Shown here in pieces: positions 1 through 17,799 of a stretch of 22,339 nucleotides of DNA; the first letter of the stretch is position 1; every line of letters begins with the position of its first letter. A program made the translations under genes and the position numbers. The notes under the pieces were generated by a model. That model was not told the DNA's origin. It searched no databases and saw only the letters and a program-made list of their open reading frames with translations. Origin of the DNA: a virus; the UHGV virus genome UHGV-0337617; one strand, 5' to 3'.

Positions 1-1
1 C

Positions 2-1753
2 CGTTTTGAGCTGATGGTGAATGAAGTGGCACGTCATGCCGGAGCGTCATCACAGAGTGCAGCGGCGGCAAAGAAATCCGAAACGGCAGCGACATCATCG
101 AAGAACGCGGCGAAAACCTCAGAAACGAATGCAGCTAACAGCGCACAGGCGGCAGCGGCCTCGCAGACTGCATCGGCAAACTCCGCGACAGCAGCCAAAA
201 AATCAGAAACCAGCGCGAAAAATAGCGAGACAGCCACAAAGGCCAGCGAAAAAAACGCAAAATCCAGCCAGACGGCAGCGAAAACCAGTGAGACGAATGC
301 CAAAGACAGTGAAGCCAACGCAAAGGTGAGCGAAACAGCGGCGGCGAACTCGGCGAAAGCATCGGCAGCAAGCCAGACGGCAGCAAAAGCAAGTGAAGAT
401 GCTGCCAGAGAATACGCAAACCAGACAGCAGAGCCGTACAGATATGTTTTACAGCCGCTGCCGGATGTGTGGATACCCTTTAATGATTCGCTGGATATGA
501 TTACGGGCTATTCTCCGGGTTATAAAAAAGTGAAGATTGGTGATAATGTGGTTCAGGTTGCCAGTGATAAACAGGTTAATTTCAGTCGCGCATCAACGGC
601 AACATATATCAACAAATCTGGCGAACTGAAAACGGCGGAAATTAATGAGCCACGATTTGAGTGTGATGGCCTGCTTATTGAGGGGCAAAGAACGAACTTC
701 TTCCCGAACAGTACAGACCCTTCGAAGTGGAATAAGTCAACTTCACTGGACGTTACAGAAACAGGCACAGATAGTTTCGGGTTTAATTATGGCCGGTTTG
801 TCGTACAGGATTCGATTGTTGGTACAAGTAAAGCGCATACCATTACCGGGCTGTATTCGAGTACCGGAGGGGTTGATACTTCAGGGGACGAAAAGCATGT
901 AACTATATCCTGTCGGGTAAAAAGTGAAGTTGATAATATCGCCGTTCGTATTTTATTTGAACATTATGATGGGGAGGTAAGGACATCAATAGGAGCAGCA
1001 AACCTGAACCTTACCACCCGCATAATTAGCAAGACAGGTCAGACAAGCCGTGTTACAGCAAGGTCTGTTAAGGATGATGCAACTGGCTGGATATTTTTTG
1101 AGGCTACATTAAAAGCAGATACAACAGAAAATACGGTTGGTGGTTTTGTCCAGTATTCTCCGGATACAGGGCAGATGGTTGCATCAGGGGATTATCTCGA
1201 TGTAACCACTCCACAGATTGAGGCTGGTACAGGCGCATCATCTTTTATTGTTACGGGGACGGCACCGGTAACGCGGGCAAGCGATATGGTTACAGTTCCG
1301 ATTAAGAATAATCTTTATAATCTTCCTTTTACGGTTCTTTGTGAGGTACATAAGAACTGGTATAAAACGCCAAATGCAGCACCGCGTGTTTTTGACACAT
1401 ACCGGCATCAGGCAGATGCGGGGATCGTAATGGGGTTTGGTTCATCAGGTGGGTACGACGGTTTTCCGTATTGCGATATAGGTGGTTCAGACCGACGAAT
1501 AAATGAAAATGCCGGGCTGGAAAAAATGCTTATTGGTATGCGGGTAAAGTCCGAACGGTCCACATGTGTAGTCAGTAACGGTAAGTTAAGCAGCGAAACT
1601 AAAACCAAATGGGAATATATCCGGAGTACAGCAACCATTCGCATTGGTGGACAAACTACAGCAGGATTACGCCATTTATTTGGGCATGTGAGGAATTTTC
1701 GTCTCTGGCATAAAGAGCTAACAGATGCGCAGCTTGGGGAGGTTGTGGAGTGA
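2..1753 (+). CDS. Tail fibre protein, 5'-partial (frame is open to the window start); N-terminal degenerate Ala/Ser/Thr/Lys-rich repeats
   Basis: Long ORF with no in-frame stop upstream of nt 14; repeated K-x-S-E-T/N-A motifs typical of lambdoid side tail fibres; followed by tail-fibre-associated ORFs and a Tfa remnant. Confidence 0.75.
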   Translation, partial: RFELMVNEVARHAGASSQSAAAAKKSETAATSSKNAAKTSETNAANSAQAAAASQTASANSATAAKKSETSAKNSETATKASEKNAKSSQTAAKTSETNAKDSEANAKVSETAAANSAKASAASQTAAKASEDAAREYANQTAEPYRYVLQPLPDVWIPFNDSLDMITGYSPGYKKVKIGDNVVQVASDKQVNFSRASTATYINKSGELKTAEINEPRFECDGLLIEGQRTNFFPNSTDPSKWNKSTSLDVTETGTDSFGFNYGRFVVQDSIVGTSKAHTITGLYSSTGGVDTSGDEKHVTISCRVKSEVDNIAVRILFEHYDGEVRTSIGAANLNLTTRIISKTGQTSRVTARSVKDDATGWIFFEATLKADTTENTVGGFVQYSPDTGQMVASGDYLDVTTPQIEAGTGASSFIVTGTAPVTRASDMVTVPIKNNLYNLPFTVLCEVHKNWYKTPNAAPRVFDTYRHQADAGIVMGFGSSGGYDGFPYCDIGGSDRRINENAGLEKMLIGMRVKSERSTCVVSNGKLSSETKTKWEYIRSTATIRIGGQTTAGLRHLFGHVRNFRLWHKELTDAQLGEVVE

Positions 1754-2028
1754 GAGATTTCACGTTGCGTTTCAGTGATAAAGCAGATTTCAGGGCATTT
1801 CTCAGGAAACTTAACTGGGAAGAGGACGAAGAGCTGCAGAATGCCGTTCTGGTTGATGAGATTGGTTTTACGTTCAGGGAGACAGATGTTTCTGATGACG
1901 GAGAACCAGAATACACGCGAAACGAAGGGTACTTTGTTAATATCCGTCTTCTTGACGATGGATTTGATGATTCCGTGTTCCGTGAGTGGGTGGTTACACC
2001 AGAGCGCCCGCTCAGGGAGTGGTTTTAA
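1750..2028 (+). CDS. Hypothetical protein downstream of tail fibre (possible fibre accessory/chaperone), acidic, 92 aa
   Basis: GTG start overlapping the tail fibre stop (GTGA), suggesting translational coupling; no recognised family. Confidence 0.45.
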   Translation: MRDFTLRFSDKADFRAFLRKLNWEEDEELQNAVLVDEIGFTFRETDVSDDGEPEYTRNEGYFVNIRLLDDGFDDSVFREWVVTPERPLREWF

Positions 2029-2037
2029 GGATAGCAG

Positions 2038-2331
2038 ATGGATATCACGTCGATACTTCATGCGCTTTGTGCCGTAGCGGTGCAGGTACTGGCTGGTCTT
2101 TTTACCGGAAACTGGGCTTACGGTGCGATAGCCGGTTGTACGTTCTTCATTGCGCGTGAACACACCCAGGCAGAATATCGCTGGATTGAAATGTTTGGGC
2201 ATGGCAAGAGGATTAACATGCCGTGGTGGGGCGGTTTTGATCCGCGCGTGTGGGATGTGGCAAGCCTGATGGATTTTGCTGTGCCGGTGGTGGCGTGTCT
2301 GCTGGTCTGGCTGTTGGTTAATCGTGGGTGA
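2038..2331 (+). CDS. Hypothetical small membrane protein (97 aa, hydrophobic segments)
   Basis: ORF starts 10 nt after previous stop; hydrophobic stretches at N- and C-termini. Confidence 0.5.
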   Translation: MDITSILHALCAVAVQVLAGLFTGNWAYGAIAGCTFFIAREHTQAEYRWIEMFGHGKRINMPWWGGFDPRVWDVASLMDFAVPVVACLLVWLLVNRG

Positions 2332-2341
2332 AAAAAGGTGA

Positions 2342-2473
2342 GCTGTATATGCAACGGCGGAGGAAGAAACCCCGTTGCTGGAAGCCTGGAAAAAGTATCG
2401 GGTGTTGCTGAACCGTGTTGATACATCAACTGCACCTGATATTGAGTGGCCTACGAACCCTGTCAGGGAGTAA
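2342..2473 (+). pseudogene. C-terminal remnant of a tail fibre assembly (Tfa) gene (43 codons, no start)
   Basis: Translation ...[37 protein letters not shown] matches the conserved C-terminus of E. coli prophage Tfa proteins as recalled (e.g. TfaR ...[32 protein letters not shown]); in-frame TGA immediately upstream at 2339-2341. Confidence 0.6.
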
Positions 2474-2588
2474 TCATTGGGATTATGCCGCAGCACGTCT
2501 TAAGCAAGAACGTGCTGCGGTTGGATGGTGAACTTTCGATAGTGCGAGTATTGAATGATTTCCAGCCGTTACAGATTTTACGTGCTAA

Positions 2589-2837
2589 TTAGTGAACAAA
2601 CCACTCGTCAGCAGACTCCCAGGTATCTTTCAGAGTTTCCTGAACAAAAGTTTTAGCTGAATCTTTATCGGCGGTGCGCGTAACAGAAAGGCCATCGTTG
2701 CTGGTAGCTTTTACGATCACCTCTACATCGTCATAACGTTTACTGATGCGTCGGGTTAATTCTTCCTTTAACGCATCCACAGCACCGGTTGGCATTTTAG
2801 TCATTTTTTCTTTGGCTATGCAGATTTCAATACGCAT
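2589..2837 (-). CDS. dinI: DinI-like DNA-damage-inducible protein
   Basis: 82 aa; MRIEI.IAK...L..EL.RRI...Y....V.V..........DK......ETW.SAD.WFV resembles E. coli DinI; GAGGGA RBS; LexA boxes upstream. Confidence 0.8.
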
Positions 2838-2852
2838 AAAAGTCCCTCTACA

Positions 2853-2868
2853 CTGTGTTTGTATACAG
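2853..2868. promoter_or_regulatory. Putative LexA box (CTGT-N8-ACAG) upstream of dinI-like gene
   Basis: CTGTGTTTGTATACAG, 16 bp upstream of the dinI-like start. Confidence 0.5.
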
Positions 2869-2880
2869 TATCATTTTTAA

Positions 2881-2896
2881 CTGTATGGATAAACAG
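2881..2896. promoter_or_regulatory. Second putative LexA box (CTGT-N8-ACAG)
   Basis: CTGTATGGATAAACAG, 28 bp from the first box. Confidence 0.45.
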
Positions 2897-2922
2897 TGTC
2901 AAGGGTGAAGGAAAGTGATTTT

Positions 2923-2982
2923 TTGGGGCATGCATGGGGCAAAAATATTTGTTGTGGGGCATTTTGGGGCATGATTGGGACA
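2923..2982. repeat. Cluster of five direct repeats (A/T)TGGG(G/A)CA; candidate integrase arm-type sites (attP arm)
   Basis: ttggggca, atggggca, gtggggca, ttggggca, attgggaca within 60 bp; the unit TGGGGCAT(G/C)ATTGGGACA recurs at 3175-3192. Confidence 0.4.
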
Positions 2983-3128
2983 CTTTGTTACATATGAACT
3001 TTGCCGATTTTTATATGACATGGAAATACAACGCTTTGATTCTTCTAAATAAAAAACATGCTCTTGGGCGTTCTTTAGTGATTTTTAAAAATTCCGTATC
3101 ACGCAGTTAACATGACGGGTATTAAGGA

Positions 3129-4442
3129 TTAACTTACTGATTTTAATAAGCCTCTGGTGTCACTTTGGTGACTATGGGGCATCATTGGGACATAATCTGT
3201 CAGCTTCTGATTCAGCATTGCGATCTGTTCTGCATTGCTGTCAGTCATCCATGCTCCGTATACATTGAATACCATCTGGGCACTTGCATGGCCCATCTGG
3301 CTGGCAATGAAGCTTGGGTTTGCTCCGGCAGATAATGACCAGCACGCATAAGTGTGTCGTGACTGGTATGCCTTTCGATGCCTGATCCCTGCACGCTTAA
3401 TGGCTGTTTCCCATGAGTCACCTACAGAATCGACTTTGTAGACAAAACCTACCTGTTCGCTTTTTCTAACCACTTGAGGGTTAAACACGAAAGTACATTC
3501 ATGGTTCACTGAACGTCCATATTCACGTAGTTGCACCTTGATGTTGTACTGCTTACCCAGTCTTGTCATTTCAGCCTGATTTTTCAGGACACTGATAGCG
3601 GGCTGGATAAGGTGCACAACCCTGTTTGTGCTTGCTTCAGTTTTCGGTAGAGTGAACTCACCAAGTTTCGTATAATTGCGCCTGATGGTAATTGTTCCTG
3701 CCTTCAGATCGATATCTTCCCAGGCCAGGGAGACCAGTTCACCGTGACGCATTCCTGTGTACACAGCCAATGACCACAGGTTTTTCGTCTGCTGATGTCG
3801 GCAAGCATCTATCAGGCGAATAAATTCGTCACGAGTTAGCGGATCTGGCTCTGCCCTGGCTCTTTTAAGAGGCTTAATTCCCTGGAAGGGATTTGCTTCT
3901 AAGTAACCGTGATCTGCAGCAAACTGAAACATTCCAGCGATTGTCGTCATGTAATAATTTACAGTAACGACGCTCCGTCCTTTTGCTGCTGCTTTGTTTT
4001 TCGTTGAATTCTGATACCCGGTCAGCAAATCTTTCCTGATATACAGCAATTCCTCTTTGGTTACCGATGACACCAGTTTACTGCCTCCAATTTTCGGAAC
4101 CATCGTTCTTGCAACGGATTCATAGCGATTGAATGCATTTGCAGAGATTTCCATTCGTTTCAGATCCAGCCACTTTTCTTCAAGTTCCTTCACCGTAATT
4201 TCTTTTTTACTTACCCCAAAAGCCTGAAGGTTGGGGGAGTCAGGGAACTGTGCAGCATAATCAAAGCTTCCTGTGCGGATGGCAAAACATACTGATGTCC
4301 GCAGTTCCCCGGCGATCTTCCTGTTCTTGGCAGTGTCAGGGACACCAAGATTTTCCCTGACACGTTTACCTTTAAAATTAAACCAGATGCGTAATGTGCC
4401 GCCGTGGTTTTCGACGCCTGTTGGATATTTGACTTTATCCAT
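3129..4442 (-). CDS. int: Tyrosine recombinase / phage integrase
   Basis: 437 aa; C-terminal catalytic region with R...HxxR...Y pattern (GMRHGELVSL, RHTYACW, NVYGAW); GGAGGT RBS; xis-like gene immediately upstream. Confidence 0.9.
   Translation of the reverse strand: MDKVKYPTGVENHGGTLRIWFNFKGKRVRENLGVPDTAKNRKIAGELRTSVCFAIRTGSFDYAAQFPDSPNLQAFGVSKKEITVKELEEKWLDLKRMEISANAFNRYESVARTMVPKIGGSKLVSSVTKEELLYIRKDLLTGYQNSTKNKAAAKGRSVVTVNYYMTTIAGMFQFAADHGYLEANPFQGIKPLKRARAEPDPLTRDEFIRLIDACRHQQTKNLWSLAVYTGMRHGELVSLAWEDIDLKAGTITIRRNYTKLGEFTLPKTEASTNRVVHLIQPAISVLKNQAEMTRLGKQYNIKVQLREYGRSVNHECTFVFNPQVVRKSEQVGFVYKVDSVGDSWETAIKRAGIRHRKAYQSRHTYACWSLSAGANPSFIASQMGHASAQMVFNVYGAWMTDSNAEQIAMLNQKLTDYVPMMPHSHQSDTRGLLKSVS
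3174..3192. repeat. Second copy of TGGGGCAT(C)ATTGGGACA repeat at the 3' end of int; candidate arm-type site
   Basis: Matches 2965-2982 except one base; lies inside the last codons of int. Confidence 0.4.
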
Positions 4443-4497
4443 CGATACCTCCAGACGCCCAAGAGCGATACGAGCTTACATATTTCATGATATTAAA

Positions 4498-4734
4498 TCA
4501 CCTGGGTTGTTTGTTTTTCATTGAGGCGACCCAGGCATCTATTGCTTTTCTGTTATACATACATTCACTGGAAGGCTTTGGATTACCGTCTGGTGATACG
4601 TGAATATACTCTCTTCCAACCATCCAGCATTCTTTCCGGGCCCGAAGAATTGTGCCTGGTTTGAGCCCGGTAATTGCGATAAGAACGCTTTCACAAACCC
4701 ATTCATTGGGAGCCAGTTGAATCACATTGCCCAT
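4498..4734 (-). CDS. xis: Excisionase-like DNA-binding protein
   Basis: 78-aa basic protein directly upstream of int in the same orientation; GAGGT RBS. Confidence 0.65.
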   Translation of the reverse strand: MGNVIQLAPNEWVCESVLIAITGLKPGTILRARKECWMVGREYIHVSPDGNPKPSSECMYNRKAIDAWVASMKNKQPR

Positions 4735-4742
4735 GTATTACC

Positions 4743-4889
4743 TCACACAACACTCAGCCCACGGCAGTGGCACCACACTTCAAACATTCGTTTCACAATT
4801 TCACGACAGTAGAAGCCGTCAACATCTCGCGTCAGGTCATAGCGATTGCCGTAACGCTGGCGCACCCATAGCTCAAACGCTTTATTCAT
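4743..4889 (-). CDS. Small hypothetical protein (48 aa), not in supplied ORF track
   Basis: ATG preceded by AAGGAAG RBS; its stop codon sits inside the xis RBS (operon-like packing); MNKAFELWVRQRYGNRYDLTRDVDGFYCREIVKRMFEVWCHCRGLSVV. Confidence 0.35.
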   Translation of the reverse strand: MNKAFELWVRQRYGNRYDLTRDVDGFYCREIVKRMFEVWCHCRGLSVV

Positions 4890-4892
4890 TCT

Positions 4893-5135
4893 TTACTTCC
4901 TTTTCATGGCCCGTAATTTTTTCAGATGAGCCTCCTGCTCTGTTTCTGCCAGAATTTGTCGGTATTCCTGGTGATCAATCCGTTCAAACAGTTCATTGAA
5001 ATCGTTTATTTTTACTGACTGTGTTCGCCCATCAATTCTTCTGTACAACACAGTGTTGTTTATGCAGCGAATAATTATTACCGGGTAACCGGCACTGTCG
5101 GTATACAGTTGTCCCTGATTAATCAAAGCGAACAT
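4893..5135 (-). CDS. Hypothetical protein (81 aa from internal Met; longest ORF would start at 5258)
   Basis: Start at Met42 avoids a 92-nt overlap with the upstream gene; GAGAGCAGGAG upstream. Confidence 0.45.
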   Translation of the reverse strand: MFALINQGQLYTDSAGYPVIIIRCINNTVLYRRIDGRTQSVKINDFNELFERIDHQEYRQILAETEQEAHLKKLRAMKRK

Positions 5136-5166
5136 TTTTTCTCCTGCTCTCTGAATAGTGAGAACT

Positions 5167-5538
5167 TCAGAGCCGTATGTTTGTAGCGGGTTCAATACTG
5201 ATAATTTCTGCTGAGATAAGCATCCCGGCAAGCCAGAGCTCTCCGGACAGGTCTTCATCCTGGCATGTCAGTTCGCCAATATTAATGGTGGCCATGATAT
5301 CTGTTTCCCCTGTACGCTCATCCTCGACTTCTTCATAAGGCAGCGTTGCGTACAGGCTTTCAATAGCGCAACTGATAACATCGAGTCCGGTCAGGTTGCC
5401 ACCGACAGTGACTTCGAATGTTTCGCGGTATTCCCATTGCCCGAAAGTTAATCGAACGGTTTGTTTCGCCATGCGTCCGCATGACGTCAGATTTGGGTCA
5501 TAGTTCATTATTTGCGGTTGAGTATTATGAGTGTTCAT
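5167..5538 (-). CDS. Hypothetical protein (123 aa)
   Basis: ORF in leftward operon; no recognised family. Confidence 0.5.
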   Translation of the reverse strand: MNTHNTQPQIMNYDPNLTSCGRMAKQTVRLTFGQWEYRETFEVTVGGNLTGLDVISCAIESLYATLPYEEVEDERTGETDIMATINIGELTCQDEDLSGELWLAGMLISAEIISIEPATNIRL

Positions 5539-5579
5539 CTGCTTTTCCCTTAGCCCGACGGCCTGCCGGGCATATTAAG

Positions 5580-6407
5580 TTATTTAACCTGGATAAATGG
5601 TGTATTGGCACCGCTGGTCATGTATTGCGGCAGCGTGCCGTTCCATTTATTGATGGCTTCCAGCTCCATAACACCGGGGTTCTGACGCAGAGCTTCACCG
5701 CGTAAACGAATAGCATCGGCTTCAGCCTGGGCTTTTGTGCGAATCGCATCAGCCTGTCCGGCAGCTTCCGCGCGCAACATGTTGGCTTCCGCTTCGCGCT
5801 GTTTTACTTCCTGCTCGCGTTGCAGAGTTTTCTGGTTCGCCGTGACTTTGGCATTAATGCTGTCGATAACAGTAGGCGGGTACTCCGGCTTACCCACATA
5901 TGAGAGGCTTATTACCTGAATACCGATGGGCGTCATTTCTTCCTGAATGTCTTTAAGAGCTGCATCCAGCAGCTCAGACTTGCCGCCGTCGATAAATTTG
6001 TCGGTGGTCATTTTGCTGGCCAGTCGGTTGAGTGCGTCGGCTATCTTCTGGCGCAGGTCGGTGTCGGTAATGTCGTCCACGCCTTTGCGGTAGGTCTGAA
6101 AGACTGTGGTAACTTTGGATGGATCAACCTTGTAGGCTACTCCGATGTGGTAACCAATGGTTGTTCCATCGCTCATCTGGAAACTGAATGGATCATCGTA
6201 GGTCTTCATCTGCTTAAAGGTCGGGAAGATATAAACTTCAGTGTTCCAGCCTGTCCAGTAGCGACCAACACCGACCACTTCACCGACGCCTTTGTCGTCG
6301 CCAAGTTTGTTGACTTTGATGCCCACATTACCAGGCTCAACACGATCACAACCGACAAGGCCAATGGCAGGCAGAACAATGGCTAAAGAAAAAATAATTT
6401 TTTTCAT
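5580..6407 (-). CDS. SPFH/band-7 (prohibitin/stomatin-like) domain lipoprotein
   Basis: 275 aa; signal peptide with lipobox LVGC; central band-7-like region and C-terminal Ala/Glu/Arg-rich coiled coil (AEANMLRAEAAGQADAIRTKAQAEADAIR). Confidence 0.75.
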   Translation of the reverse strand: MKKIIFSLAIVLPAIGLVGCDRVEPGNVGIKVNKLGDDKGVGEVVGVGRYWTGWNTEVYIFPTFKQMKTYDDPFSFQMSDGTTIGYHIGVAYKVDPSKVTTVFQTYRKGVDDITDTDLRQKIADALNRLASKMTTDKFIDGGKSELLDAALKDIQEEMTPIGIQVISLSYVGKPEYPPTVIDSINAKVTANQKTLQREQEVKQREAEANMLRAEAAGQADAIRTKAQAEADAIRLRGEALRQNPGVMELEAINKWNGTLPQYMTSGANTPFIQVK

Positions 6408-6592
6408 CTTTTATCCTTAGTGAAAGAAAGCCCCTTATAAATGGTATAAATACATGGCGGGGTTAGAAACGTCAGTGCAAAGCCAGAAATCACCGCTACC
6501 GTATCCTTCATTGATATCAGAAACGGGACGAGCAATCCGTAAATACATGCGATAATTGCCAGTGATATAACTATTCTGAAATAAATGTTCAT
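6404..6592 (-). CDS. Small two-helix membrane protein (62 aa) translationally coupled to the SPFH gene
   Basis: ATGA start/stop overlap with the SPFH gene; two hydrophobic segments. Confidence 0.5.
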   Translation of the reverse strand: MNIYFRIVISLAIIACIYGLLVPFLISMKDTVAVISGFALTFLTPPCIYTIYKGLSFTKDKR

Positions 6593-6652
6593 GGTCCTCC
6601 TGCTGTATTCAGCTTGCCTTATTTAATTGCGTCATGGTTAATTTCGTTTACG

Positions 6653-7045
6653 TCAGAATGGTTTTGTTGCCATCAGTTCGTAATATCCGGCGCTCCATGT
6701 GTCATATTTTCTGAACCATTTTTCTGTATACTGTTTCCTGGCGATGAGTCTGCGCAGTCGTCTGATTGTTCGCTGGTGTGCGCGGGTGTACTCTGTGGTT
6801 GATTCTCCACGTTTCCATATTTCATTCCCGTTGAAGATAAAACGCTTGTCAGGATGGCGTTGTCGGAATCCTGAACGTTCAAAAGCGCGGGTGGTCATAA
6901 AGAATGCCAGGTAACGAATTGCCGTTTTTCGAGTGAGGCATTTTTTTGTTCTTCCGTGATGTGTTACAAAAAATAACGGGCCGACGGGTGTATCATGTTT
7001 CTGTAATGCCTGGTCAATGGCGCTGGCGGTGCGGTTGTCGATCAT
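6653..7045 (-). CDS. Hypothetical basic protein (130 aa)
   Basis: ORF in leftward operon; Arg/Lys-rich C-terminus. Confidence 0.5.
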   Translation of the reverse strand: MIDNRTASAIDQALQKHDTPVGPLFFVTHHGRTKKCLTRKTAIRYLAFFMTTRAFERSGFRQRHPDKRFIFNGNEIWKRGESTTEYTRAHQRTIRRLRRLIARKQYTEKWFRKYDTWSAGYYELMATKPF

Positions 7046-7260
7046 TTCTTTATTTCTCCCGAATAACGTTCATGACTCATTATTTCCCAGTTCCGGCCGT
7101 CGTCTTTCGATAACAGCCGCCAGCGACGGTTAACCTTCAGACTGAGATATCCGTTGCGCTGTATCCGATGCGGGAATATACGTCGGCATCTGTACCGCCG
7201 CAGGACCAGCAACGCCTGCTGGTGGACCCACTCAGGAATTCGCGTTGCTGTTAATGTCAC
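7042..7260 (-). CDS. Hypothetical small basic protein (72 aa)
   Basis: 4-nt overlap with downstream gene; Arg-rich. Confidence 0.45.
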   Translation of the reverse strand: MTLTATRIPEWVHQQALLVLRRYRCRRIFPHRIQRNGYLSLKVNRRWRLLSKDDGRNWEIMSHERYSGEIKK

Positions 7261-7447
7261 TGGTTTCCTCCTGAGCAGGTGCTGTTATCTGATACCCCGC
7301 TCTTTCTGCCAGCCATATGAATGTATCCATGCTGGCAATCAGCTCTCCATCGCGGACTTTGCAGACATCTGTTACCTGGCCATTTTCAATTGTCATAACG
7401 ATCTGCACTTTTTCGTGCACAACAGATACAGGGGATAAATTAGCCAT
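7232..7447 (-). CDS. Hypothetical protein (71 aa)
   Basis: ORF in leftward operon, overlaps neighbours by a few codons. Confidence 0.4.
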   Translation of the reverse strand: MANLSPVSVVHEKVQIVMTIENGQVTDVCKVRDGELIASMDTFIWLAERAGYQITAPAQEETSDINSNANS

Positions 7448-7806
7448 CAGTTAATTCCTCCGCTGATATATTTTTCTTTCGCGTAATCAATAACCTCTTG
7501 TAAAAGGTTGTCTATAATTAACTTTCCGGTTTCAGCCTGGTATTCAGTATGTTGATTAATCCCGATGGCATTCTGGTATGCAGTTCGGAATTCTGTTTCA
7601 CCCTCCACTCGACCCAATTCACCACGGGTAATATCTTCAAAGCGCAACAGCAACTGGTTTATAAACTGTTCTGTTATTTCTATGGTCGTAATGTTCCCAT
7701 CCAGAAGGTCAACAATAAGCAGATCACCACCTGTTTTACGTTTTATTCGATGGAGTGCTGCAACAGCTATACGGCGACGATATGTATTAATGGGTTCATG
7801 TGTCAT
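7447..7806 (-). CDS. Hypothetical protein (119 aa)
   Basis: ORF in leftward operon. Confidence 0.5.
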   Translation of the reverse strand: MTHEPINTYRRRIAVAALHRIKRKTGGDLLIVDLLDGNITTIEITEQFINQLLLRFEDITRGELGRVEGETEFRTAYQNAIGINQHTEYQAETGKLIIDNLLQEVIDYAKEKYISGGIN

Positions 7807-7809
7807 TTG

Positions 7810-7923
7810 TTATTTCCCGTATGCTTTACGCAGAAATAAGCAGGCAATATGCATGTAATTTTCACCGTATTGTGCAATAAGACAGGCGGTCTTGTGTGAT
7901 GCCATATTCTTTATAAAAGTCAT
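7810..7923 (-). CDS. Small hypothetical ORF (37 aa), not in supplied track
   Basis: GGAGG RBS 7 nt upstream of ATG; stop 3 nt before the next gene start; MTFIKNMASHKTACLIAQYGENYMHIACLFLRKAYGK. Confidence 0.3.
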   Translation of the reverse strand: MTFIKNMASHKTACLIAQYGENYMHIACLFLRKAYGK

Positions 7924-8001
7924 AATAAATCCTCCTGTGGATTAAGATTGTAACAATCCCCGGCGATAAAACCGCAATAAACGTTCAGAGCATATTTGTT
8001 G

Positions 8002-8367
8002 TTATTGCGCTAATTCTTTTTCGGCAGCAGTTTTTGCATACTCACATGCAAAATTCAGAATTTCGCTGCCGAGTGTTTTCGTTTCGTGATTACTGGACAT
8101 ATGTAATACCTGTGTTGCATGCAATAAATGATAAACATTTACCGCAAATGAATCAGGCTCCAGACAAATGCCTTCGTAATTATCTTGCTGTGAGGTTGTT
8201 TCTGTCATTGCTTCTGAAGTGCATGCGAGCCTGTTTTTGACAATTCTCTTTCCTCTAATCACTATATCGGCAACATCTATTGCCTTTACAACCTCCGGGA
8301 GAAGTTCCGGGTTTGTATAATCAAAGTCATCAACATGGAGAACAGTTATGTTTTCGAACTTTTTCAT
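8002..8367 (-). CDS. Hypothetical protein (121 aa)
   Basis: ORF diverging from the 8547..8774 gene across a 179-bp intergenic region. Confidence 0.5.
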   Translation of the reverse strand: MKKFENITVLHVDDFDYTNPELLPEVVKAIDVADIVIRGKRIVKNRLACTSEAMTETTSQQDNYEGICLEPDSFAVNVYHLLHATQVLHMSSNHETKTLGSEILNFACEYAKTAAEKELAQ

Positions 8368-8546
8368 GGCTTCCTCAGCTGACTTATATGTCCTGCTATA
8401 TAGCGAGTCTCAGAAGTGTTTTCATATTGAGACTGTTTCCGCAATGATTGATAATCAGTTACCGGATGCTTATCCGTGTCCGGCGCACGACCACACGTAG
8501 CCGCGTGTTGGTCCCCATTTTCAATTCAGCTCTCAATGGAGGATAA

Positions 8547-8774
8547 ATGATTAACGCAGAGCAACTCGAAAAAGAGATTTCAGAACTCAAAAAAGAATTA
8601 ATTTGGCACAAAGTTGCTATCTCCGCATTAATTCGTCAGGTAGTTTCACCTGAAGATAAAGTAAAGTTTATGAAGCAGTTCTCATCTTCATCAAAGGAGT
8701 TTTTCACTGACGAGGTTCATCCAGAGGCTGGATTTTGGATCCGTCAATTATTTTCGCAAGATAAGCGTAAATAG
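8547..8774 (+). CDS. Hypothetical protein (75 aa), N-terminal coiled-coil-like
   Basis: GGAGG RBS 7 nt upstream of ATG; rightward gene inside an otherwise leftward region. Confidence 0.5.
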   Translation: MINAEQLEKEISELKKELIWHKVAISALIRQVVSPEDKVKFMKQFSSSSKEFFTDEVHPEAGFWIRQLFSQDKRK

Positions 8775-8946
8775 CGTCATCAATACTCGCGTCGCTCTTG
8801 AATTTAAGAGCGATGCTCTTTATATCCTCTGAAATTATTACCAGATCACCATATGTTATATTTTTATTATTGCGCGCAGTGCTTTTTTGTATGAAATCAA
8901 GCAATTCACCAATGAGACAAATATGGTAAGCATCACAGTTTTTCAT
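8704..8946 (-). CDS. Hypothetical protein (80 aa from Met15), coupled to the upstream HTH gene
   Basis: ATGA overlap with the stop of 8943..9359; AAGGA RBS; 3' end overlaps convergent 8547..8774 by 71 nt. Confidence 0.4.
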   Translation of the reverse strand: MKNCDAYHICLIGELLDFIQKSTARNNKNITYGDLVIISEDIKSIALKFKSDASIDDAIYAYLAKIIDGSKIQPLDEPRQ

Positions 8947-9359
8947 GCGCAGATATCCTTTGCTGCCGTTTCGCCAGTTAACAGCCACATCGGATCGCAG
9001 CCAAGAATATTTGCCAGTGGGATAAGCATACTGATAGTTGGTTCATACTCTCCGCTCTCCCACTGGATGATAATTTCTTCATCGAGATCGAGCAGCCTGG
9101 CGAGTTCGGCGGTTGTTAAGCCGCAGGCTTCGCGTTGGGTGCGAAGACGGTTGTTGATTGCAGAATTTTTGTTCTGTAAAAGCATTGCTGACGATAGCTT
9201 TCTGGATATGCTATTTGTCATATCCCATGCCAGTCCTGCGCATGACTCTATATCGCTAGAGAGCGTAGCATCAGGTGTTGCTTTTGCTATTAGTGTAATG
9301 AGGCTGCCGAGGTTTTTCAGTTCTTCGAGACAGTCAAGAGTTGTAGCTTTATTGATCAT
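8943..9359 (-). CDS. HTH (XRE-type) DNA-binding protein with the helix-turn-helix at the C-terminus
   Basis: 138 aa; C-terminal LTTAELARLLDLDEEIIIQWESGEYEPTISMLIPLANILGCDPMWLL looks like an XRE HTH; first gene leftward of the OL operator cluster. Confidence 0.6.
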   Translation of the reverse strand: MINKATTLDCLEELKNLGSLITLIAKATPDATLSSDIESCAGLAWDMTNSISRKLSSAMLLQNKNSAINNRLRTQREACGLTTAELARLLDLDEEIIIQWESGEYEPTISMLIPLANILGCDPMWLLTGETAAKDICA

Positions 9360-9364
9360 GAGAT

Positions 9365-9442
9365 GATACCTCAGTTACGAACTTTGTTTTATGGTAACTA
9401 AGGTATCAAGGTGTGGCAAGTGATTTTTGATACTTTGGTTTC
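9365..9442. promoter_or_regulatory. Putative left operator (three 14-bp sites, GATAC-N4-GTNNC class)
   Basis: GATACCTCAGTTAC (9365-9378), GATACCTTAGTTAC (reverse, 9394-9407), GATACTTTGGTTTC (9429-9442); 32-bp centre spacing. Confidence 0.5.
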
Positions 9443-9462
9443 TTTTTGTGTTTTGTGTCTGG

Positions 9463-10119
9463 TCAGAAAATATCCCACCTGGCATCAACCACAACACCTA
9501 CTATTTCGCAATCATTGTCCATTTCTATGATTGGATATTGTGGATTAAGGGGCTTTAGAAACGCCTTTCCCATGTCAGAAATATATTTTTTGAATGTTGC
9601 TTCATTGGTGGATTTTTTTCTGGCGATGACGTAACACCCTGAAAAAACTTCTTTATCTGGGTTGACAAGGATCGACATTCCTTCAGGAAATGTTATTCCT
9701 ACGGGCGAAGTCATTGAGTCTCCGTGCACTTCCAGCCAGAACCCCCTCTCACCAGCGTATTTTACAGAATGCCTCCAATTATCCTGATCATACATGTTGT
9801 AGTCATCACCAGAAGTTGCGAATAATCCTGCCTGAACCCAGTTAATTACAGGGTAAGAGTGTGCTGTGTCTCTCTGTGGGCAGCTCTTAACATTATTTTC
9901 CCAATGCTTATCTTTTTCATCTCCGTTCTGAAGCCACTGCGGTGAACACCGCAGTGCAGCTGCAACTTTAAAAAGGGTGTCACCGTTGAAACTTTTTGTA
10001 AGGCCTTGCTCGGCTTTACTGATTGCAACTCTGGTGATCCCAGCTTTTTTAGCCAACGCATCTTGTGTTAACCCAGCTTTTTGCCGTGCGTTGATGAGAC
10101 GTTCACCTAAAGACTTCAT
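9463..10119 (-). CDS. cI: cI-like phage repressor with HTH and S24 (LexA-like) autopeptidase domain
   Basis: C-terminal FWLEVHGDSMTSP...FKK...LNPQYP resembles lambda cI; N-terminal HTH (MKSLGERLINARQKAGLTQDALAKKAGI); GAGGAG RBS before Met26 of the longest ORF. Confidence 0.85.
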   Translation of the reverse strand: MKSLGERLINARQKAGLTQDALAKKAGITRVAISKAEQGLTKSFNGDTLFKVAAALRCSPQWLQNGDEKDKHWENNVKSCPQRDTAHSYPVINWVQAGLFATSGDDYNMYDQDNWRHSVKYAGERGFWLEVHGDSMTSPVGITFPEGMSILVNPDKEVFSGCYVIARKKSTNEATFKKYISDMGKAFLKPLNPQYPIIEMDNDCEIVGVVVDARWDIF

Positions 10120-10143
10120 TTTTCTTCTCCTCTCATGGCTGTT

Positions 10144-10213
10144 GATACTAAAGTAACAGAATTTCTTGATACTTTGGATTCCCGCGGTTAACATCGTTGG
10201 ATAACAAAGTATC
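10144..10213. promoter_or_regulatory. Putative right operator (three 14-bp sites of the same class)
   Basis: GATACTAAAGTAAC (10144-10157), GATACTTTGGATTC (10168-10181), GATAACAAAGTATC (10200-10213, palindromic); between divergent cI and rightward genes. Confidence 0.55.
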
Positions 10214-10230
10214 TGGTGTGAGACTAAAGA

Positions 10231-10458
10231 ATGACCCTTTATGAAATATTAAAAATTCAATTTAAAACCAATGCCGCTATTGGTCGCAGGTTCCCAAAGA
10301 AAGGAAGGCCTCGTGGCAGTCAAGGTGTTGGAAAGTGGAAAACGCGAGGTGTTCCGGAGGATGTTGCCATTCTTTGTCATCTGGATCCGAGCATTCCATA
10401 TACACACCCAAGTCTAGCGAATACAGAAGATGACAAGCCCACAGGAGACCAACAATGA
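10231..10458 (+). CDS. Hypothetical small basic protein in the cro position
   Basis: First rightward ORF after the operator; weak RBS and no clear HTH, so coding status is uncertain. Confidence 0.3.
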   Translation: MTLYEILKIQFKTNAAIGRRFPKKGRPRGSQGVGKWKTRGVPEDVAILCHLDPSIPYTHPSLANTEDDKPTGDQQ

Positions 10459-11162
10459 ACACCGCAATTTTTAACGGCAAAGCATCCATGACCAGCGTTG
10501 AGATCGCAGAGCTGGTGGGTAAACGTCATGACAATGTGAAACGCACTATTGAAACATTAGCCAAAGGTGGCGTTGTCCGGTCTCCTCAAATTGAGGTTTC
10601 CGAAAGAATCAATAACTTAGGTTTTAAAGTTCAATATGAGCATTACCTGTTTGAAGGAGAACAAGGTAAGCGCGACAGCATCATTGTCGTCGCACAGCTC
10701 TGTCCTGAATTCACTGCTCGCCTGGTAGATCGCTGGCACGAACTGGAAGAACAGATCCGTAAGCCAATGAGCGAAATCGAAATGGTTGCCGCGATGGCTC
10801 TTGAAGCAGTTCGTCAGCAGAAACGGATCACTCAGGTGGAAGAAAAAGTCAGCCACGTTGCTGAAACAGTCGAGCAAATTAAAAAGGGCACTATTCGTGA
10901 GGGCTATGCCGGATATCGCCAACTGAAAGCAAAAACCGGTTTGTCAGATGATAAATGCCGCAATCTGGTGAACGCCTATCAGATTCCTACAGACACCCAT
11001 GAGTTCATGACGCCGGACGGATTGTTGTCACGTCGCGCAATTGTTGCTGTGGAACCGTTTATGGCTGCTTTTTATCGGGTTATGGAGGAAGCAGAACCGC
11101 GAGGGACTCGCTGGTATCACCCGAAAATGGGGTTATTTCAGGTTATTGGTTGGCAGCGGTGA
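10455..11162 (+). CDS. Rha-family phage regulatory protein
   Basis: 235 aa; N-terminal region resembles Rha family (SVEIAELVGKRHDNVKRTIETL); AGGAGA RBS; ATGA overlap with previous ORF. Confidence 0.7.
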   Translation: MNTAIFNGKASMTSVEIAELVGKRHDNVKRTIETLAKGGVVRSPQIEVSERINNLGFKVQYEHYLFEGEQGKRDSIIVVAQLCPEFTARLVDRWHELEEQIRKPMSEIEMVAAMALEAVRQQKRITQVEEKVSHVAETVEQIKKGTIREGYAGYRQLKAKTGLSDDKCRNLVNAYQIPTDTHEFMTPDGLLSRRAIVAVEPFMAAFYRVMEEAEPRGTRWYHPKMGLFQVIGWQR

Positions 11163-11384
11163 AAAAAAGCCGGGAGTAACCCGGCTCACTCAACATCAAT
11201 AACGGGGAGCTGTTTCGCATAAAACGGCTCCGAAACATCCAAGAACAGTTCTAAAGATATCAGCAGCTATATGATCATTTCAAGACCAAATATTGATTCT
11301 GCAATTTCGGGACGTTACACTGTCTCCGCACCTTATAAAGCGGGTGCCGGGGGTCGCAGCCCGGAATTGTCAACGGCGATATAT

Positions 11385-11404
11385 GACGCGCCAGCGTCTT
11401 TTTT
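11385..11404 (+). terminator. Putative intrinsic terminator inside the early-right operon
   Basis: GACGC-GCCA-GCGTC hairpin followed by TTTTTT. Confidence 0.4.
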
Positions 11405-17401: not shown

Positions 17402-17418
17402 TTTTGTGGAGAAAGTTG

Positions 17419-17799
17419 ATGCGTGATATTCAGATGGTTCTTGAACGCTGGGGGGCATGGGCTGCAAGTGGTAACACCGGGGTGGACTATTCTCCGATCG
17501 CTGCCGGATTCAAAGGACTTTTACCATCTGCCACTAAACCACGTCCGGCCTGCTGCGATGATGACGGACTTATCATTGAAAACTGTCTTGCTCGTCTGAA
17601 GCAGAAAAAACCTGAGGAGTATTCGCTTCTCATTGCTCATTATTTGTTGCGAATATCAAAAAGACAGATAGCCAGGACGAGAAAGAAAAGCGAAAAAGCA
17701 ATACGAATTGAGATGCAGATAGCCGAAGGGTTTATTGACGGATGTTTGTCTGTGCTGGGGGTAAGACTGGAGATGGACGACTGGCTGCTAAAAAAGTAA
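17419..17799 (+). CDS. Q: Late-gene antiterminator Q-like protein
   Basis: MRDIQMVLERWGAWAASGNTGVDYS...AGFKGLL... resembles the phage antitermination Q family; GGAGAAAG RBS; terminator about 70 bp downstream. Confidence 0.65.
   Translation: MRDIQMVLERWGAWAASGNTGVDYSPIAAGFKGLLPSATKPRPACCDDDGLIIENCLARLKQKKPEEYSLLIAHYLLRISKRQIARTRKKSEKAIRIEMQIAEGFIDGCLSVLGVRLEMDDWLLKK

What the first reader, a model, noticed from the sequence alone, without database searches (positions are those of the whole stretch)
4743..8367. Early-left operon is a dense block of unrecognised genes with no identifiable N, exo/bet/gam-type functions
Eleven tightly packed minus-strand ORFs lie between xis and the repressor region, with several ATGA overlaps and two extra small ORFs carrying strong RBSs. 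Apart from the SPFH protein none is recognisable by eye. The plus-strand terminators imply some antitermination mechanism, but no N-like Arg-rich protein is evident.
Basis: inference. Interest (0 to 1): 0.4.

Follow-up and report, generated by a model that had tools for sequence, protein, structure and literature searches.

The report
Accessory early-left genes, phiP27-like phage
This is the ordinary accessory "early-left" gene block of a phiP27-like lambdoid coliphage that belongs to an already described class lacking its own N antiterminator and Red/Gam recombination genes and carrying many Chi sites, which that literature proposes let the phage use the host RecBCD enzyme.

Summary
4743-8367 carries eleven tightly packed minus-strand genes, all under purifying selection (pN/pS 0.06-0.48), including a 48-aa and a 37-aa gene. 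None matches N, Exo, Bet, Gam or any other recombination or antitermination family. Four match Pfam families: DUF4222, DUF5406, SPFH/Band_7 and ParE_like. Two others gave confident AlphaFold models with no PDB neighbour; one of these also had none in BFVD.

The context makes this ordinary. The block is 100% identical to prophages in 39 complete E. coli genomes, where RefSeq gives the same family names. The operon really starts 1 kb further right, at a CI-controlled PL/OL (9364-9442) in front of an HTH gene.

The leftward strand has no intrinsic terminator, nut site or put-like element, so early-left transcription needs no N. The strong plus-strand terminators lie downstream of a clear Q antiterminator (17404-17799) or belong to an IsrK sRNA.

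The missing Red/Gam module fits the published "no Rec module, high Chi" class, 22% of enterobacterial lambdoid phages. The window has 15 Chi sites against 0.65 expected. The whole prophage has 12 top-strand Chi, ten of them clustered at the right end.

Verdict: real, but already explained; low interest.

The parts
3100..3110 (.). attP core. The window is the phage-form junction: tail-fibre/DinI end joined to int.
   Evidence: The window matches the attR side of the ZH063 prophage up to about 3110 and the attL side from about 3100-3104. phiP27 attL maps here.
3129..4442 (-). Tyrosine integrase; last gene of the leftward arm.
   Evidence: PF12167 and PF00589.
4498..4734 (-). Excisionase (DUF1233 family).
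   Evidence: PF06806, E 9.5e-33.
4743..4889 (-). 48-aa conserved small protein (phrog_3871).
   Evidence: PHROG E 5.7e-36. pN/pS 0.20 over 25 homologues. 70-81% identical in Salmonella, Citrobacter and Raoultella.
4893..5135 (-). DUF4222 protein, 80 aa. The true start is Met42 of the 121-aa ORF.
   Evidence: PF13973, E 1.2e-15; phrog_285 matches residues 42-121. PGAP calls the 80-aa form.
5167..5538 (-). DUF5406 protein, 123 aa, acidic (pI 4.1).
   Evidence: PF17400, E 1.7e-22; pI.
5580..6407 (-). SPFH/Band-7 lipoprotein. Lipobox LVGC with Asp at +2, so inner-membrane retention facing the periplasm is inferred.
   Evidence: PF01145, E 2.9e-31. phrog_200 'lipoprotein', 9e-115. Best solved relative is E. 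coli HflK, E 2e-4. pN/pS 0.06. Lipobox read from the translation.
6404..6592 (-). 62-aa protein with two hydrophobic helices, ATGA-coupled to the SPFH gene.
   Evidence: phrog_1130 'membrane protein', 3.6e-23. GRAVY 1.05. Present in every locus that has the SPFH gene.
6653..7045 (-). 130-aa basic protein (pI 10.8) with an orphan fold: an alpha/beta domain plus a 43-residue Arg-rich helix.
7042..7260 (-). 72-aa ParE_like-domain protein (pI 11.3). GTG start behind AGGAGG; ATGA-coupled to the next gene.
   Evidence: PF24732, E 1.6e-17, 63.7 bits against a cutoff of 24.4. PGAP names it 'ParE family toxin-like protein'.
7232..7447 (-). 71-aa acidic protein (pI 4.3, phrog_340). Candidate partner of the ParE_like protein.
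   Evidence: Only 24 representative clusters among 1.84 billion proteins; apart from one 2,050-aa protein matched over 28 residues (E 7e-5), all are small standalone proteins. Precedes ParE_like with the same 29-nt overlap in 4 of 6 other genera; a fifth has an o8-like ORF with a shorter overlap.
7447..7806 (-). 119-aa globular protein with an orphan fold. The N-terminal helix carries the conserved motif YRRRIAxAALxRxKRKTG.
7810..7923 (-). 37-aa conserved peptide gene. Not called by PGAP; no Pfam or PHROG family.
   Evidence: AGGAGG RBS. pN/pS 0.29 over 14 homologues. 51-68% identical in other genera. Annotated only in PhiR49_2.
8002..8367 (-). phiP27 L08 homologue, 121 aa, or 68 aa if it starts at 8208.
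   Evidence: phrog_5451, 1.7e-82 over the full length; phrog_4587 matches the C-terminal 65 aa. PGAP aa. The N-terminal 53 codons are uninformative.
8427..8816 (+). Convergent moron-like cassette: promoter-like site 8427-8455, 75-aa ORF 8547-8774, hairpin plus T-tract 8789-8816.
   Evidence: phrog_20080. Present in only 14 of the 47 loci compared.
8704..8946 (-). 80-aa ORF, ATGA-coupled to the HTH gene (phrog_23054).
   Evidence: It overlaps the plus-strand ORF tail-to-tail by 71 nt.
8943..9359 (-). First gene of the leftward operon: Xre-type HTH regulator (phiP27 L10).
   Evidence: PF01381, 2.5e-11. phrog_4836 'CII-like regulator', 4.3e-40.
9364..9442 (-). OL/PL: three TTGATAC-type operator sites (9364-9378, 9394-9409, 9427-9442) around a promoter-like -35 TTGCCA (starts 9419) and -10 TACCAT (ends 9391).
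   Evidence: The heptamer is present in all 17 loci that carry this CI type and in none of 30 loci with another repressor.
9463..10119 (-). CI repressor (HTH plus S24 peptidase).
   Evidence: PF00717 and PF01381. The 218-aa form matches phiP27 L11 and PGAP.
10142..10213 (.). OR with three matching operator sites, and PR-like TTGATA-17-TAACAT.
17404..17799 (+). Q-family late antiterminator, with terminators downstream at 17868-17888 and 18199-18216.
   Evidence: PF06530, 1.6e-52. phrog_79. Terminators.

Best explanation
The block is the non-essential accessory part of the leftward early (PL) operon of a phiP27-like lambdoid siphophage. The source is E. coli; identical prophages sit in yecE.

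How it works. Shown: a CI repressor with matching tripartite operators flanks cI on both sides. Inferred: when CI is inactivated, RNA polymerase starts at PL (about 9391-9419). It then reads an HTH regulator gene, an optional moron cassette, the eleven small genes, and finally xis and int, as one translationally coupled unit.

Shown: no compact intrinsic terminator, nut site (boxA+boxB) or HK022-type put element lies on that strand. Inferred: no N-type early antiterminator is therefore needed. Late-gene terminators are read through by a Q-family protein.

Shown: the phage has no recognisable Exo/Bet/Gam-type module, and it has Chi sites enriched about 20-fold over chance and clustered towards the right end of the packaged DNA. 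Inferred from the published class: it relies on host RecBCD-Chi recombination to make concatemers.

Shown: the eleven genes are real, mosaic accessory genes. They include an inner-membrane SPFH lipoprotein with a coupled two-helix membrane peptide, a basic ParE_like protein preceded by a small acidic protein, two orphan-fold proteins, DUF4222, DUF5406 and two micro-proteins.

Inferred, weakly: they act on the host envelope and physiology during early development, like the lambda exo-xis/b-region genes, rather than in phage DNA transactions.
For: Identity. 93.7% identity to phiP27 over 83% of 3000-11000. The block is 100% identical in 39 complete E. coli genomes with the same family names. The complete 42-kb prophage in ZH063 has lambdoid gene order.

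PL/OL. Operator repeats appear, and a promoter-like site. The operator heptamer co-varies perfectly with CI type: 17 of 17 loci against 0 of 30.

No leftward terminators. Two independent scans agree. Leftward intergenic RNAs are unstructured, z from -1.2 to +0.3.

No nut or put. There is a single boxA octamer (31% of shuffles give at least one). No boxB-like hairpin sits next to a boxA. The two early transcripts share no element, best E 1.4. An nhmmer profile of HK022 putL/putR finds nothing at E<=100. Rfam finds nothing in 4743-9400.

Q. Searches, with terminators just downstream.

No Rec or N families.. PGAP annotates no recombination gene anywhere in the prophage.

Chi. 15 sites in the window against 0.65 expected; 0 of 100 shuffles reach 15. 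The ZH063 prophage has 12 top-strand and 6 bottom-strand sites, with 10 of the 12 top-strand sites in the right-hand 16 kb of the cos-to-cos map. phiP27 has 12 top and 5 bottom.

Published class. 'No Rec module' lambdoid phages make up 68 of 314 genomes, and 62 of them have 8 or more top-strand Chi. The prototype LLS also lacks N, and its growth is aided by RecBCD (PMC12315714).

Genes are real and mosaic. pN/pS; synteny matrix. phiP27 itself lacks three of the eleven genes, and Salmonella relatives lack the ParE_like gene.
Against: There are no expression data, so the single-operon reading, the PL assignment and read-through into xis/int are inferred from sequence alone.

Rho-dependent termination cannot be assessed with these tools. 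The convergent plus-strand cassette (8427-8816) could attenuate leftward transcription.

A promoter-like site inside 8002-8367 (8208-8179, 10 of 12 matches) could give independent expression. However, promoter-like hits in this region are no more frequent than in shuffles (16 against 15.3).

The IsrK terminator at 11385 lies between PR and the replication genes. How it is passed is not shown here.

The functions of 9 of the 11 proteins remain unknown. Reliance on RecBCD is taken from another phage of the class, not shown for this one. Whether this phage was in the published panel could not be checked, because the supplement is not held.
Confidence: 0.7

Rival explanations
1. A hidden N/Nun-type antiterminator. 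The 119-aa protein (7447-7806) uses its N-terminal Arg-rich helix to bind an RNA site and modify RNA polymerase.
For: The conserved motif YRRRIAVAALHRIKRK resembles the HK022 Nun Arg-rich motif DRRRIARWEKRIAYAL, read from the HK022 sequence. Its size, 119 aa, is close to that of N and Nun. It lies in the PL operon.
Against: AF2 predicts a compact alpha/beta globule, pLDDT 89.9 and pTM 0.81, with the Arg-rich helix packed against it. By established knowledge, N and Nun are disordered and basic. Here the pI is 5.4. It is about the fifth gene from PL, not the first. No boxA+boxB site exists on either early transcript, and they share no element. It has no profile hit to antiterminator families. 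There is no leftward terminator for it to suppress.
Confidence: 0.04
2. RNA-based (put-like) early antitermination, as in HK022 and as suggested for phage LLS.
For: N is absent. The published suggestion for LLS, a member of the same class (PMC12315714). A strongly structured two-hairpin segment lies at 11163-11270 on the plus strand, z -3.83, just upstream of the IsrK terminator.
Against: A profile of HK022 putL/putR finds nothing in the window. The PL and PR leaders are only about 25-30 nt and unstructured. No related pair of elements lies downstream of PL and PR. The first hairpin at 11167-11187 is a terminator for the opposite strand. The segment is 96-100% identical in all relatives, so covariation cannot be tested.
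Confidence: 0.05
3. An unrecognised recombination or anti-RecBCD module hides among the orphan proteins, for example the basic 130-aa protein with its long Arg-rich helix together with the 119-aa and 71-aa proteins.
For: The trio of 119-aa, 71-aa and 130-aa genes is conserved together across Escherichia, Salmonella, Citrobacter and Raoultella, in the position where Rec modules usually sit. Two of the folds have no PDB neighbours.
Confidence: 0.07
4. A sub-hypothesis for 7042-7447: the acidic 71-aa protein and the basic ParE_like 72-aa protein form a type II toxin-antitoxin pair, acting in addiction or abortive infection.
For: PF24732 hit at 63.7 bits. pI 4.3 against 11.3. Antitoxin-then-toxin order with a 29-nt overlap, kept in 4 of 6 other genera; a fifth has an o8-like ORF with a shorter overlap. 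ParE-type three-gene systems with an HTH regulator are known in O157 cryptic prophages (PMC8630535, listed).
Against: The partnership is not strict. Salmonella relatives keep the 71-aa gene without ParE_like. In Rahnella, ParE_like follows a 119-aa-type gene with no 71-aa gene. A profile of the ParE_like protein finds no solved ParE or RelE structure. PADLOC and NCBIfam are silent. A toxin inside a CI-repressed lytic operon would not give classical addiction.
Confidence: 0.3
5. A lysogenic-conversion (moron) cluster. The block, or at least the SPFH lipoprotein pair, is expressed from the prophage and alters the host envelope, virulence or superinfection resistance, rather than acting in early lytic development.
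For: Low G+C, 40-44%, around 7000-9500. PHROG labels the 62-aa protein 'moron, auxiliary metabolic gene and host takeover'. A prophage-island SPFH lipoprotein of Pasteurella multocida is reported as a virulence factor (PMC9872710). A promoter-like site lies at 8208-8179.
Against: All the genes share the strand and tight or overlapping spacing of the CI-controlled leftward unit. They have no flanking terminators of their own. Promoter-like sites are not enriched over shuffles.
Confidence: 0.15

Closest known systems
Early-left region of Stx2e phage phiP27 (genes L03-L10; NC_003356 / AJ298298)
   Same: Same int, xis, 48-aa gene, DUF4222, DUF5406, SPFH lipoprotein (L05), L08, L09, L10 HTH, CI and Rha genes, at 76-100% protein identity and in the same order. 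No N and no Rec genes. Chi count is 12 top and 5 bottom.
   Different: phiP27 carries L06/L07 in place of the 130-aa, ParE_like and 119-aa genes. It has a Mu-like contractile tail and stx2e. The phage here has a lambda-like siphovirus tail in its ZH063 copy, and no stx.
'No Rec module, high Chi' lambdoid phages: Class A, the LLS functional type (Genome Res 2025, PMC12315714)
   Same: Lambdoid gene order. The early-left operon is filled with genes unrelated to recombination. There is no N homologue. Top-strand Chi sites are many and clustered at the right end.
   Different: The early-left genes described for LLS (the yfbR/yfdQ/yfdP type, ST64B-like) are not among the families found in this block. 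RecBCD dependence has not been tested for this phage. Its inclusion in the published panel could not be verified.
Lambda exo-xis / b-region accessory genes (orf60a, orf61, orf63, orf73, ea22, ea8.5; PMC3824215, PMC4195576)
   Same: A run of small, conserved genes of largely unknown function, driven by PL and lying between the essential early functions and xis/int. They are reported to modulate lysogenisation and induction (abstracts listed).
   Different: No sequence or profile similarity to any of them. In lambda they sit beside a Red/Gam module and are expressed through N antitermination; neither exists here.
E. coli HflK/HflC (SPFH modulators of FtsH)
   Same: HflK is the best solved-structure relative of the 275-aa protein, E 2e-4 over residues 114-240, and NCBIfam gives weak HflC/HflK hits. 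As inferred from the lipobox, the SPFH domain would face the periplasm from the inner membrane, the topology established for HflK/C.
   Different: Scores are far below the family cutoffs: 26 bits against 134 for HflC. It is anchored by a lipid, not a transmembrane helix. It has no HflC-like paralogue; its partner is a 62-aa two-helix peptide. No link to FtsH has been shown.
PaaR2-PaaA2-ParE2 of E. coli O157:H7 cryptic prophages (PMC8630535)
   Same: A prophage-borne ParE-type protein preceded by a small acidic protein.
   Different: There is no detectable sequence relation to solved ParE proteins. The protein is 72 aa, against about 90 aa by my own knowledge. There is no dedicated regulator gene next to it, and the partner is not strictly co-inherited.

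Membership tests
Lambda N / HK022 Nun antiterminators | Profile similarity to N or Nun families | tested here: not met
   No Pfam (E<=0.1-1) or PHROG (E<=0.01) hit to an antitermination family for any ORF in 4743-9359 or for the small early-right ORFs. That these libraries hold N models is my own knowledge.
Lambda N / HK022 Nun antiterminators | Small, basic, intrinsically disordered protein with an N-terminal Arg-rich motif, encoded first after PL | tested here: not met
   The only candidate (7447-7806) has an Arg-rich helix, but it is a confident globular fold, has pI 5.4, and is about the fifth gene from PL.
Lambda N / HK022 Nun antiterminators | nut sites (boxA plus boxB hairpin) on both early transcripts | tested here: not met
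   One boxA octamer in the window, not significant. No boxB-like hairpin lies near a boxA.
HK022 put RNA antitermination | Two related two-stem-loop elements of about 70 nt downstream of PL and PR | tested here: not met
   An nhmmer profile built from HK022 putL/putR finds nothing. The leftward and rightward transcripts share no element. The leaders are short and unstructured. A covariance-model search was not run.
Lambdoid Rec module (Exo/RecE, Bet/RecT/Erf/Sak, SSB, Gam/Abc2) | At least one recognisable annealase, nuclease or anti-RecBCD gene in the early-left operon | tested here: not met
'No Rec module, high Chi' lambdoid class (PMC12315714) | Lambdoid gene order with no Rec module | tested here: met
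   The order int-xis-accessory-cI-cro-replication-Q-lysis-cos-head-tail, and no Rec genes as shown in the row above.
'No Rec module, high Chi' lambdoid class (PMC12315714) | [quoted passage not shown] | tested here: met
   10 top-strand Chi in the window. 12 in the 42.2-kb prophage, 10 of them in the right-hand 16 kb.
'No Rec module, high Chi' lambdoid class (PMC12315714) | Growth aided by host RecBCD | not testable with these tools
   Needs plating on recB, recC and recD hosts.
ParE/RelE-superfamily type II toxin | Family-level profile match | tested here: met
   PF24732 ParE_like, 63.7 bits against a cutoff of 24.4.
ParE/RelE-superfamily type II toxin | Detectable relation to solved ParE or RelE proteins, or the same fold | tested here: inconclusive
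   Single-sequence and 6-sequence profile searches of the PDB find none.
ParE/RelE-superfamily type II toxin | A cognate antitoxin gene always adjacent and co-inherited | tested here: inconclusive
   An acidic 71-aa-type gene precedes it in E. coli and in 5 of 6 other genera, with the same 29-nt overlap in 4 of them. It is missing in Rahnella. The 71-aa gene occurs without ParE_like in Salmonella.
ParE/RelE-superfamily type II toxin | Toxicity that the partner neutralises | not testable with these tools
   Needs expression assays.
SPFH / Band 7 | SPFH domain above the Pfam gathering score, plus a membrane anchor | tested here: met
   PF01145, 109 bits against 23.6. Signal peptide and lipobox LVGC read from the translation.
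SPFH / Band 7 | An operon partner of the NfeD type | tested here: not met
   The coupled 62-aa gene has no Pfam hit. It is a two-helix peptide without an NfeD domain.
Q-type late antitermination | A Q-family protein followed by terminators ahead of the lysis genes | tested here: met
   PF06530, E 1.6e-52. Terminators at 17868-17888 and 18199-18216.

The most novel reading that the evidence does not exclude
The inner-membrane SPFH lipoprotein (5580-6407) and its translationally coupled two-helix peptide (6404-6592) may act as a phage-made mimic or modulator of the host HflK/HflC-FtsH complex. The pair sits in the PL operon of a phage with no recognisable cIII. It would then do the job of lambda CIII, tuning FtsH and hence the lysis-lysogeny decision, by a completely different route. 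Only three things support this: the weak best-hit relation to HflK, the inferred periplasm-facing topology, and the gene position.
Probability: 0.06. Interest if true: 0.6.

Novelty: already known. Interest (0 to 1): 0.15.

Why it matters
It matters little beyond correct annotation. The result shows that a lambdoid early-left arm lacking N and Red/Gam is no anomaly. It is the signature of a described and common class, about one in five enterobacterial lambdoid phages, which carries abundant Chi sites. In this window the leftward arm also needs no early antitermination.

Some annotation points are useful:
- the true start of the operon, PL/OL at 9364-9442;
- a conserved 37-aa gene that PGAP does not call;
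- the ambiguous start of the L08 homologue;
- the SPFH protein is probably an inner-membrane lipoprotein.

The conserved trio of 119-aa, 71-aa and 130-aa genes, with two confident orphan folds, and the loosely partnered ParE_like gene are reasonable targets for anyone screening prophage accessory genes. Nothing here points to a new kind of system.

Tried and rejected
- Single-sequence PDB searches for the ParE_like, 130-aa and DUF5406 proteins found nothing useful.
- Profile PDB searches with alignments of the 130-aa, 119-aa and ParE_like families found nothing.
- Foldseek against BFVD for the 119-aa model gave no hit at E<=0.001.
- The afdb50 library was not available.
- PADLOC gave no defence-system hit beyond generic HTH similarity. 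NCBIfam gave only sub-threshold HflK/C hits.
- An exhaustive HMMER search for the 71-aa protein found 24 representative clusters and no informative fusion.
- Rfam at E<=1 found nothing inside 4743-9400.
- The boxA octamer at 8812-8805, on the leftward transcript, was rejected as a nut site. It occurs once, which is compatible with chance. It forms the stem of the plus-strand ORF's terminator hairpin, and no boxB follows it.
- The put-like idea was tested by locating putL and putR in HK022, building a profile and searching. The result was negative.
- A covariation test of the two hairpins at 11163-11270 was not possible, because relatives are 96-100% identical.
- The supplementary tables of the Chi paper are not held.
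- Literature searches found nothing on DUF5406 or on antitermination in phiP27.
- The 121-aa reading of 4893-5258 was rejected in favour of 80 aa.

Full report
**What the window is.**
The 22.3-kb window is a phiP27-like lambdoid phage. Region 3000-11000 is 93.7% identical to Stx2e phage phiP27 over 83% of its length and 98.5% identical to phage PhiR49_2 over 41%. The block 4743-8367 is 100% identical to prophages in 39 complete E. coli genomes, for example strain ZH063.

In ZH063 the prophage is about 42 kb, integrated in yecE, with lambdoid gene order and a lambda-like tail. Window positions 1-3110 are the far (attR) end of that prophage, joined to int. The window therefore carries attP at about 3100-3110 and represents the phage form.

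The map from Pfam, PHROG and Rfam hits is:
- int 3129-4442 and xis 4498-4734;
- the block 4743-8367;
- a plus-strand ORF 8547-8774 and an HTH gene 8943-9359;
- cI 9463-10119 and a cro-like gene 10231-10458;
- Rha-type regulators, with IsrK and C4 RNAs at 11328-11516;
- replication genes 12827-16105;
- Q 17404-17799, a methylase and three tRNAs;
- lysis genes 20056-21783 and an HNH gene next to cos.

**Check of the observation.**
Eleven minus-strand ORFs fill 4743-8367. The junctions read from the sequence are ATGA at 6404-6407 and 7042-7045, TGATG at 7445-7449, a 29-nt overlap at 7232-7260, and 3-nt gaps at 4890-4892 and 7807-7809. Shine-Dalgarno motifs precede most starts.

They are genes, not chance ORFs. 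Nei-Gojobori comparisons with 10-25 distinct homologues give pN/pS of 0.06-0.48 for each one, including the 48-aa and 37-aa ORFs.

Two starts need correction. The DUF4222 gene is 80 aa (4893-5135), not 121 aa. The L08 homologue is either 121 aa or 68 aa, because its first 53 codons carry no informative substitutions and PGAP calls the short form. PGAP does not call the 37-aa gene, and it has no Pfam or PHROG family.

**What profile and structure searches give.**
Pfam places four proteins: DUF4222, DUF5406, SPFH/Band_7 and ParE_like. Ten of the eleven have PHROG families, nearly all of 'unknown function'. NCBIfam gives only sub-threshold HflK/HflC hits for the SPFH protein, and PADLOC gives nothing.

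No ORF matches N, Nun, Exo, Bet/RecT/Erf, Gam/Abc2, Kil or CIII families.

**Where the operon really starts.**
The heptamer TTGATAC and its extended 14-16-bp context occur three times at 10142-10213, between cI and the cro-like gene. They occur three more times at 9364-9442, between cI and the HTH gene. A promoter-like -35/-10 pair for leftward transcription (9419-9391) is embedded in the left set.

Among the loci with an L10 homologue, all 17 that carry this CI type have the heptamer upstream of that homologue. None of the 30 with a different repressor has it, although their HTH domains are up to 99% identical. These are therefore the CI operators.

The leftward operon begins with the Xre-type HTH gene (phrog_4836, 'CII-like regulator', 4e-40). 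An 80-aa ORF is ATGA-coupled to it.

The segment 8427-8946 carries a convergent plus-strand ORF with its own promoter-like site and terminator. It is present in only 14 of the 47 loci compared and behaves as a moron-like insertion. In PhiR49_2 the HTH gene and the L08 homologue are adjacent.

**Antitermination.**
Two independent scans find no compact hairpin-plus-U-tract terminator on the minus strand between 9500 and 4400. Leftward intergenic RNAs fold no better than shuffles.

- 8789-8816 ends the convergent ORF.
- 11385-11398 is the terminator of an IsrK-family sRNA (Rfam, 58.7 bits). It is followed by a C4-type antisense RNA (78.8 bits). This is the type of RNA switch described for Gifsy-1 (PMC4825925).
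- 17868-17888, 18199-18216, 19729-19746 and 19954-19978 all lie downstream of a Q-family antiterminator.

I tested the specific alternatives.
- nut sites: there is one boxA octamer, compatible with chance and part of a hairpin stem. No boxB-like hairpin lies next to a boxA.
- put sites: I located putL and putR in HK022, built a profile and found no match. The two early transcripts share no element.
- A hidden N: the 119-aa protein has an N-terminal motif, YRRRIAVAALHRIKRK, that resembles the Nun Arg-rich motif. However, it is a folded, acidic globule encoded about five genes from PL.

Leftward early transcription therefore appears to need no antiterminator. Rho-dependent termination cannot be excluded with these tools.

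**Why there is no Red/Gam.**
The window has 15 Chi octamers (GCTGGTGG) against 0.65 expected, and none of 100 shuffles reaches 15. The whole ZH063 prophage has 12 on the top strand and 6 on the bottom. Ten of the 12 top-strand sites lie in the right-hand 16 kb of the cos-to-cos map. phiP27 has 12 top and 5 bottom.

This is the signature of the published 'no Rec module, high Chi' class (PMC12315714). In that study 68 of 314 enterobacterial lambdoid phages have no Rec module, and 62 of those have 8 or more top-strand Chi, often clustered at the right end. The prototype LLS also lacks N, and its growth is helped by RecBCD. The authors also note that no unknown gene is universally present in these early-left regions. 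This agrees with the mosaic pattern here: phiP27 lacks three of the eleven genes, and Salmonella relatives lack the ParE_like gene.

**The individual modules.**
- SPFH pair. The 275-aa protein has a signal peptide and lipobox LVGC with Asp at +2. By the established Lol-avoidance rule this predicts an inner-membrane lipoprotein facing the periplasm. Its best solved relative is HflK, E 2e-4. It is always accompanied by the ATGA-coupled 62-aa two-helix peptide. Its function is unknown. A prophage-island SPFH lipoprotein of Pasteurella multocida is reported as a virulence factor (PMC9872710).
- ParE_like gene. This 72-aa basic protein follows a 71-aa acidic protein with a 29-nt overlap, an arrangement kept in 4 of 6 other genera. 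The pairing is not strict, and no link to solved ParE or RelE structures was detectable. I rate a toxin-antitoxin pair at about 0.3.
- Conserved trio. The 119-aa, 71-aa and 130-aa genes travel together across genera and across immunity types. This is the most coherent unknown unit in the block.

**Verdict.**
The implied puzzle is already resolved by known biology: a Q-only, Chi-rich, Rec-less lambdoid phage class whose leftward arm has no terminators to overcome. Identical sequences are already annotated with the same family names. What remains unknown is the function of the individual accessory proteins, which is the normal state for this part of temperate phage genomes. Interest is low (0.15).

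Noticed in passing
window 11328-11516 (+), inside ORF 11271-12122: Rfam finds an IsrK-family sRNA (11328-11404, 58.7 bits) and a C4-type antisense RNA (11429-11516, 78.8 bits). Both lie within the 'Ash' half of an Ash+Rha antirepressor-type ORF. This looks like a P1 immI / Gifsy-1 IsrK-type RNA switch in the early-right operon. The IsrK-like segment is repeated two or three times in some related loci.
   Followed up: partly
window 11163-11283: The plus strand folds into two strong hairpins, z -3.83. The first (11167-11187) is a good terminator for the minus strand, and a minus-strand promoter-like site lies at 11283-11254. Together these suggest an unannotated leftward sRNA of about 85 nt, in an oop-like position. 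Rfam has no hit, and relatives are too similar for a covariation test.
   Followed up: partly
window 7218-21958; whole ZH063 prophage (L047 + L060): Chi (GCTGGTGG) is enriched about 20-fold: 15 sites against 0.65 expected. The whole prophage has 12 top-strand sites, 10 of them clustered in the right-hand 16 kb of the packaged genome.
   Followed up: yes
window 1-3128: The left 3.1 kb (tail-fibre genes and DinI) is the opposite end of the same prophage in E. coli ZH063. The window therefore spans attP (core about 3100-3110) and comes from an excised or phage-form genome.
   Followed up: yes
window 8427-8946: A 75-aa plus-strand ORF with its own promoter-like site and terminator converges on the PL transcript. 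It overlaps an 80-aa minus-strand ORF tail-to-tail by 71 nt, and that ORF is ATGA-coupled to the HTH gene. The segment is present in only 14 of the 47 loci compared. PGAP annotates the plus ORF but not the minus one.
   Followed up: partly
window 7810-7923 (-): A 37-aa ORF with an AGGAGG RBS is conserved at 51-68% identity in Citrobacter, Trabulsiella and Raoultella (about 41% in Pseudescherichia), pN/pS 0.29. It is absent from the PGAP annotation, Pfam and PHROGs.
   Followed up: yes
window 7447-7806 (-), residues 9-24: The conserved N-terminal motif YRRRIAVAALHRIKRK resembles the Arg-rich motif of HK022 Nun (DRRRIARWEKRIAYAL). In the AlphaFold model it is a helix packed on a globular domain. 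No nut sites were found.
   Followed up: yes
window 8805-8812 (-): This is the only exact boxA octamer (CGCTCTTA) in the window. It lies on the leftward transcript but forms part of the stem of the 8789-8816 hairpin, and it is compatible with chance (31% of shuffles).
   Followed up: yes
window 19463-19989 (+): Three tRNAs lie downstream of Q and the methylase, followed by an STnc100-family sRNA (140 bits). ARAGORN calls them Met(CAT), Arg(TCG) and Arg(TCT); PGAP calls the CAT tRNA Ile. phiP27 carries stx2e at this position; there is no stx here.
   Followed up: no
window 7000-9500: G+C falls to 40-44%, against 49-55% in the replication and late regions. This is consistent with horizontally shuffled accessory genes.
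   Followed up: no
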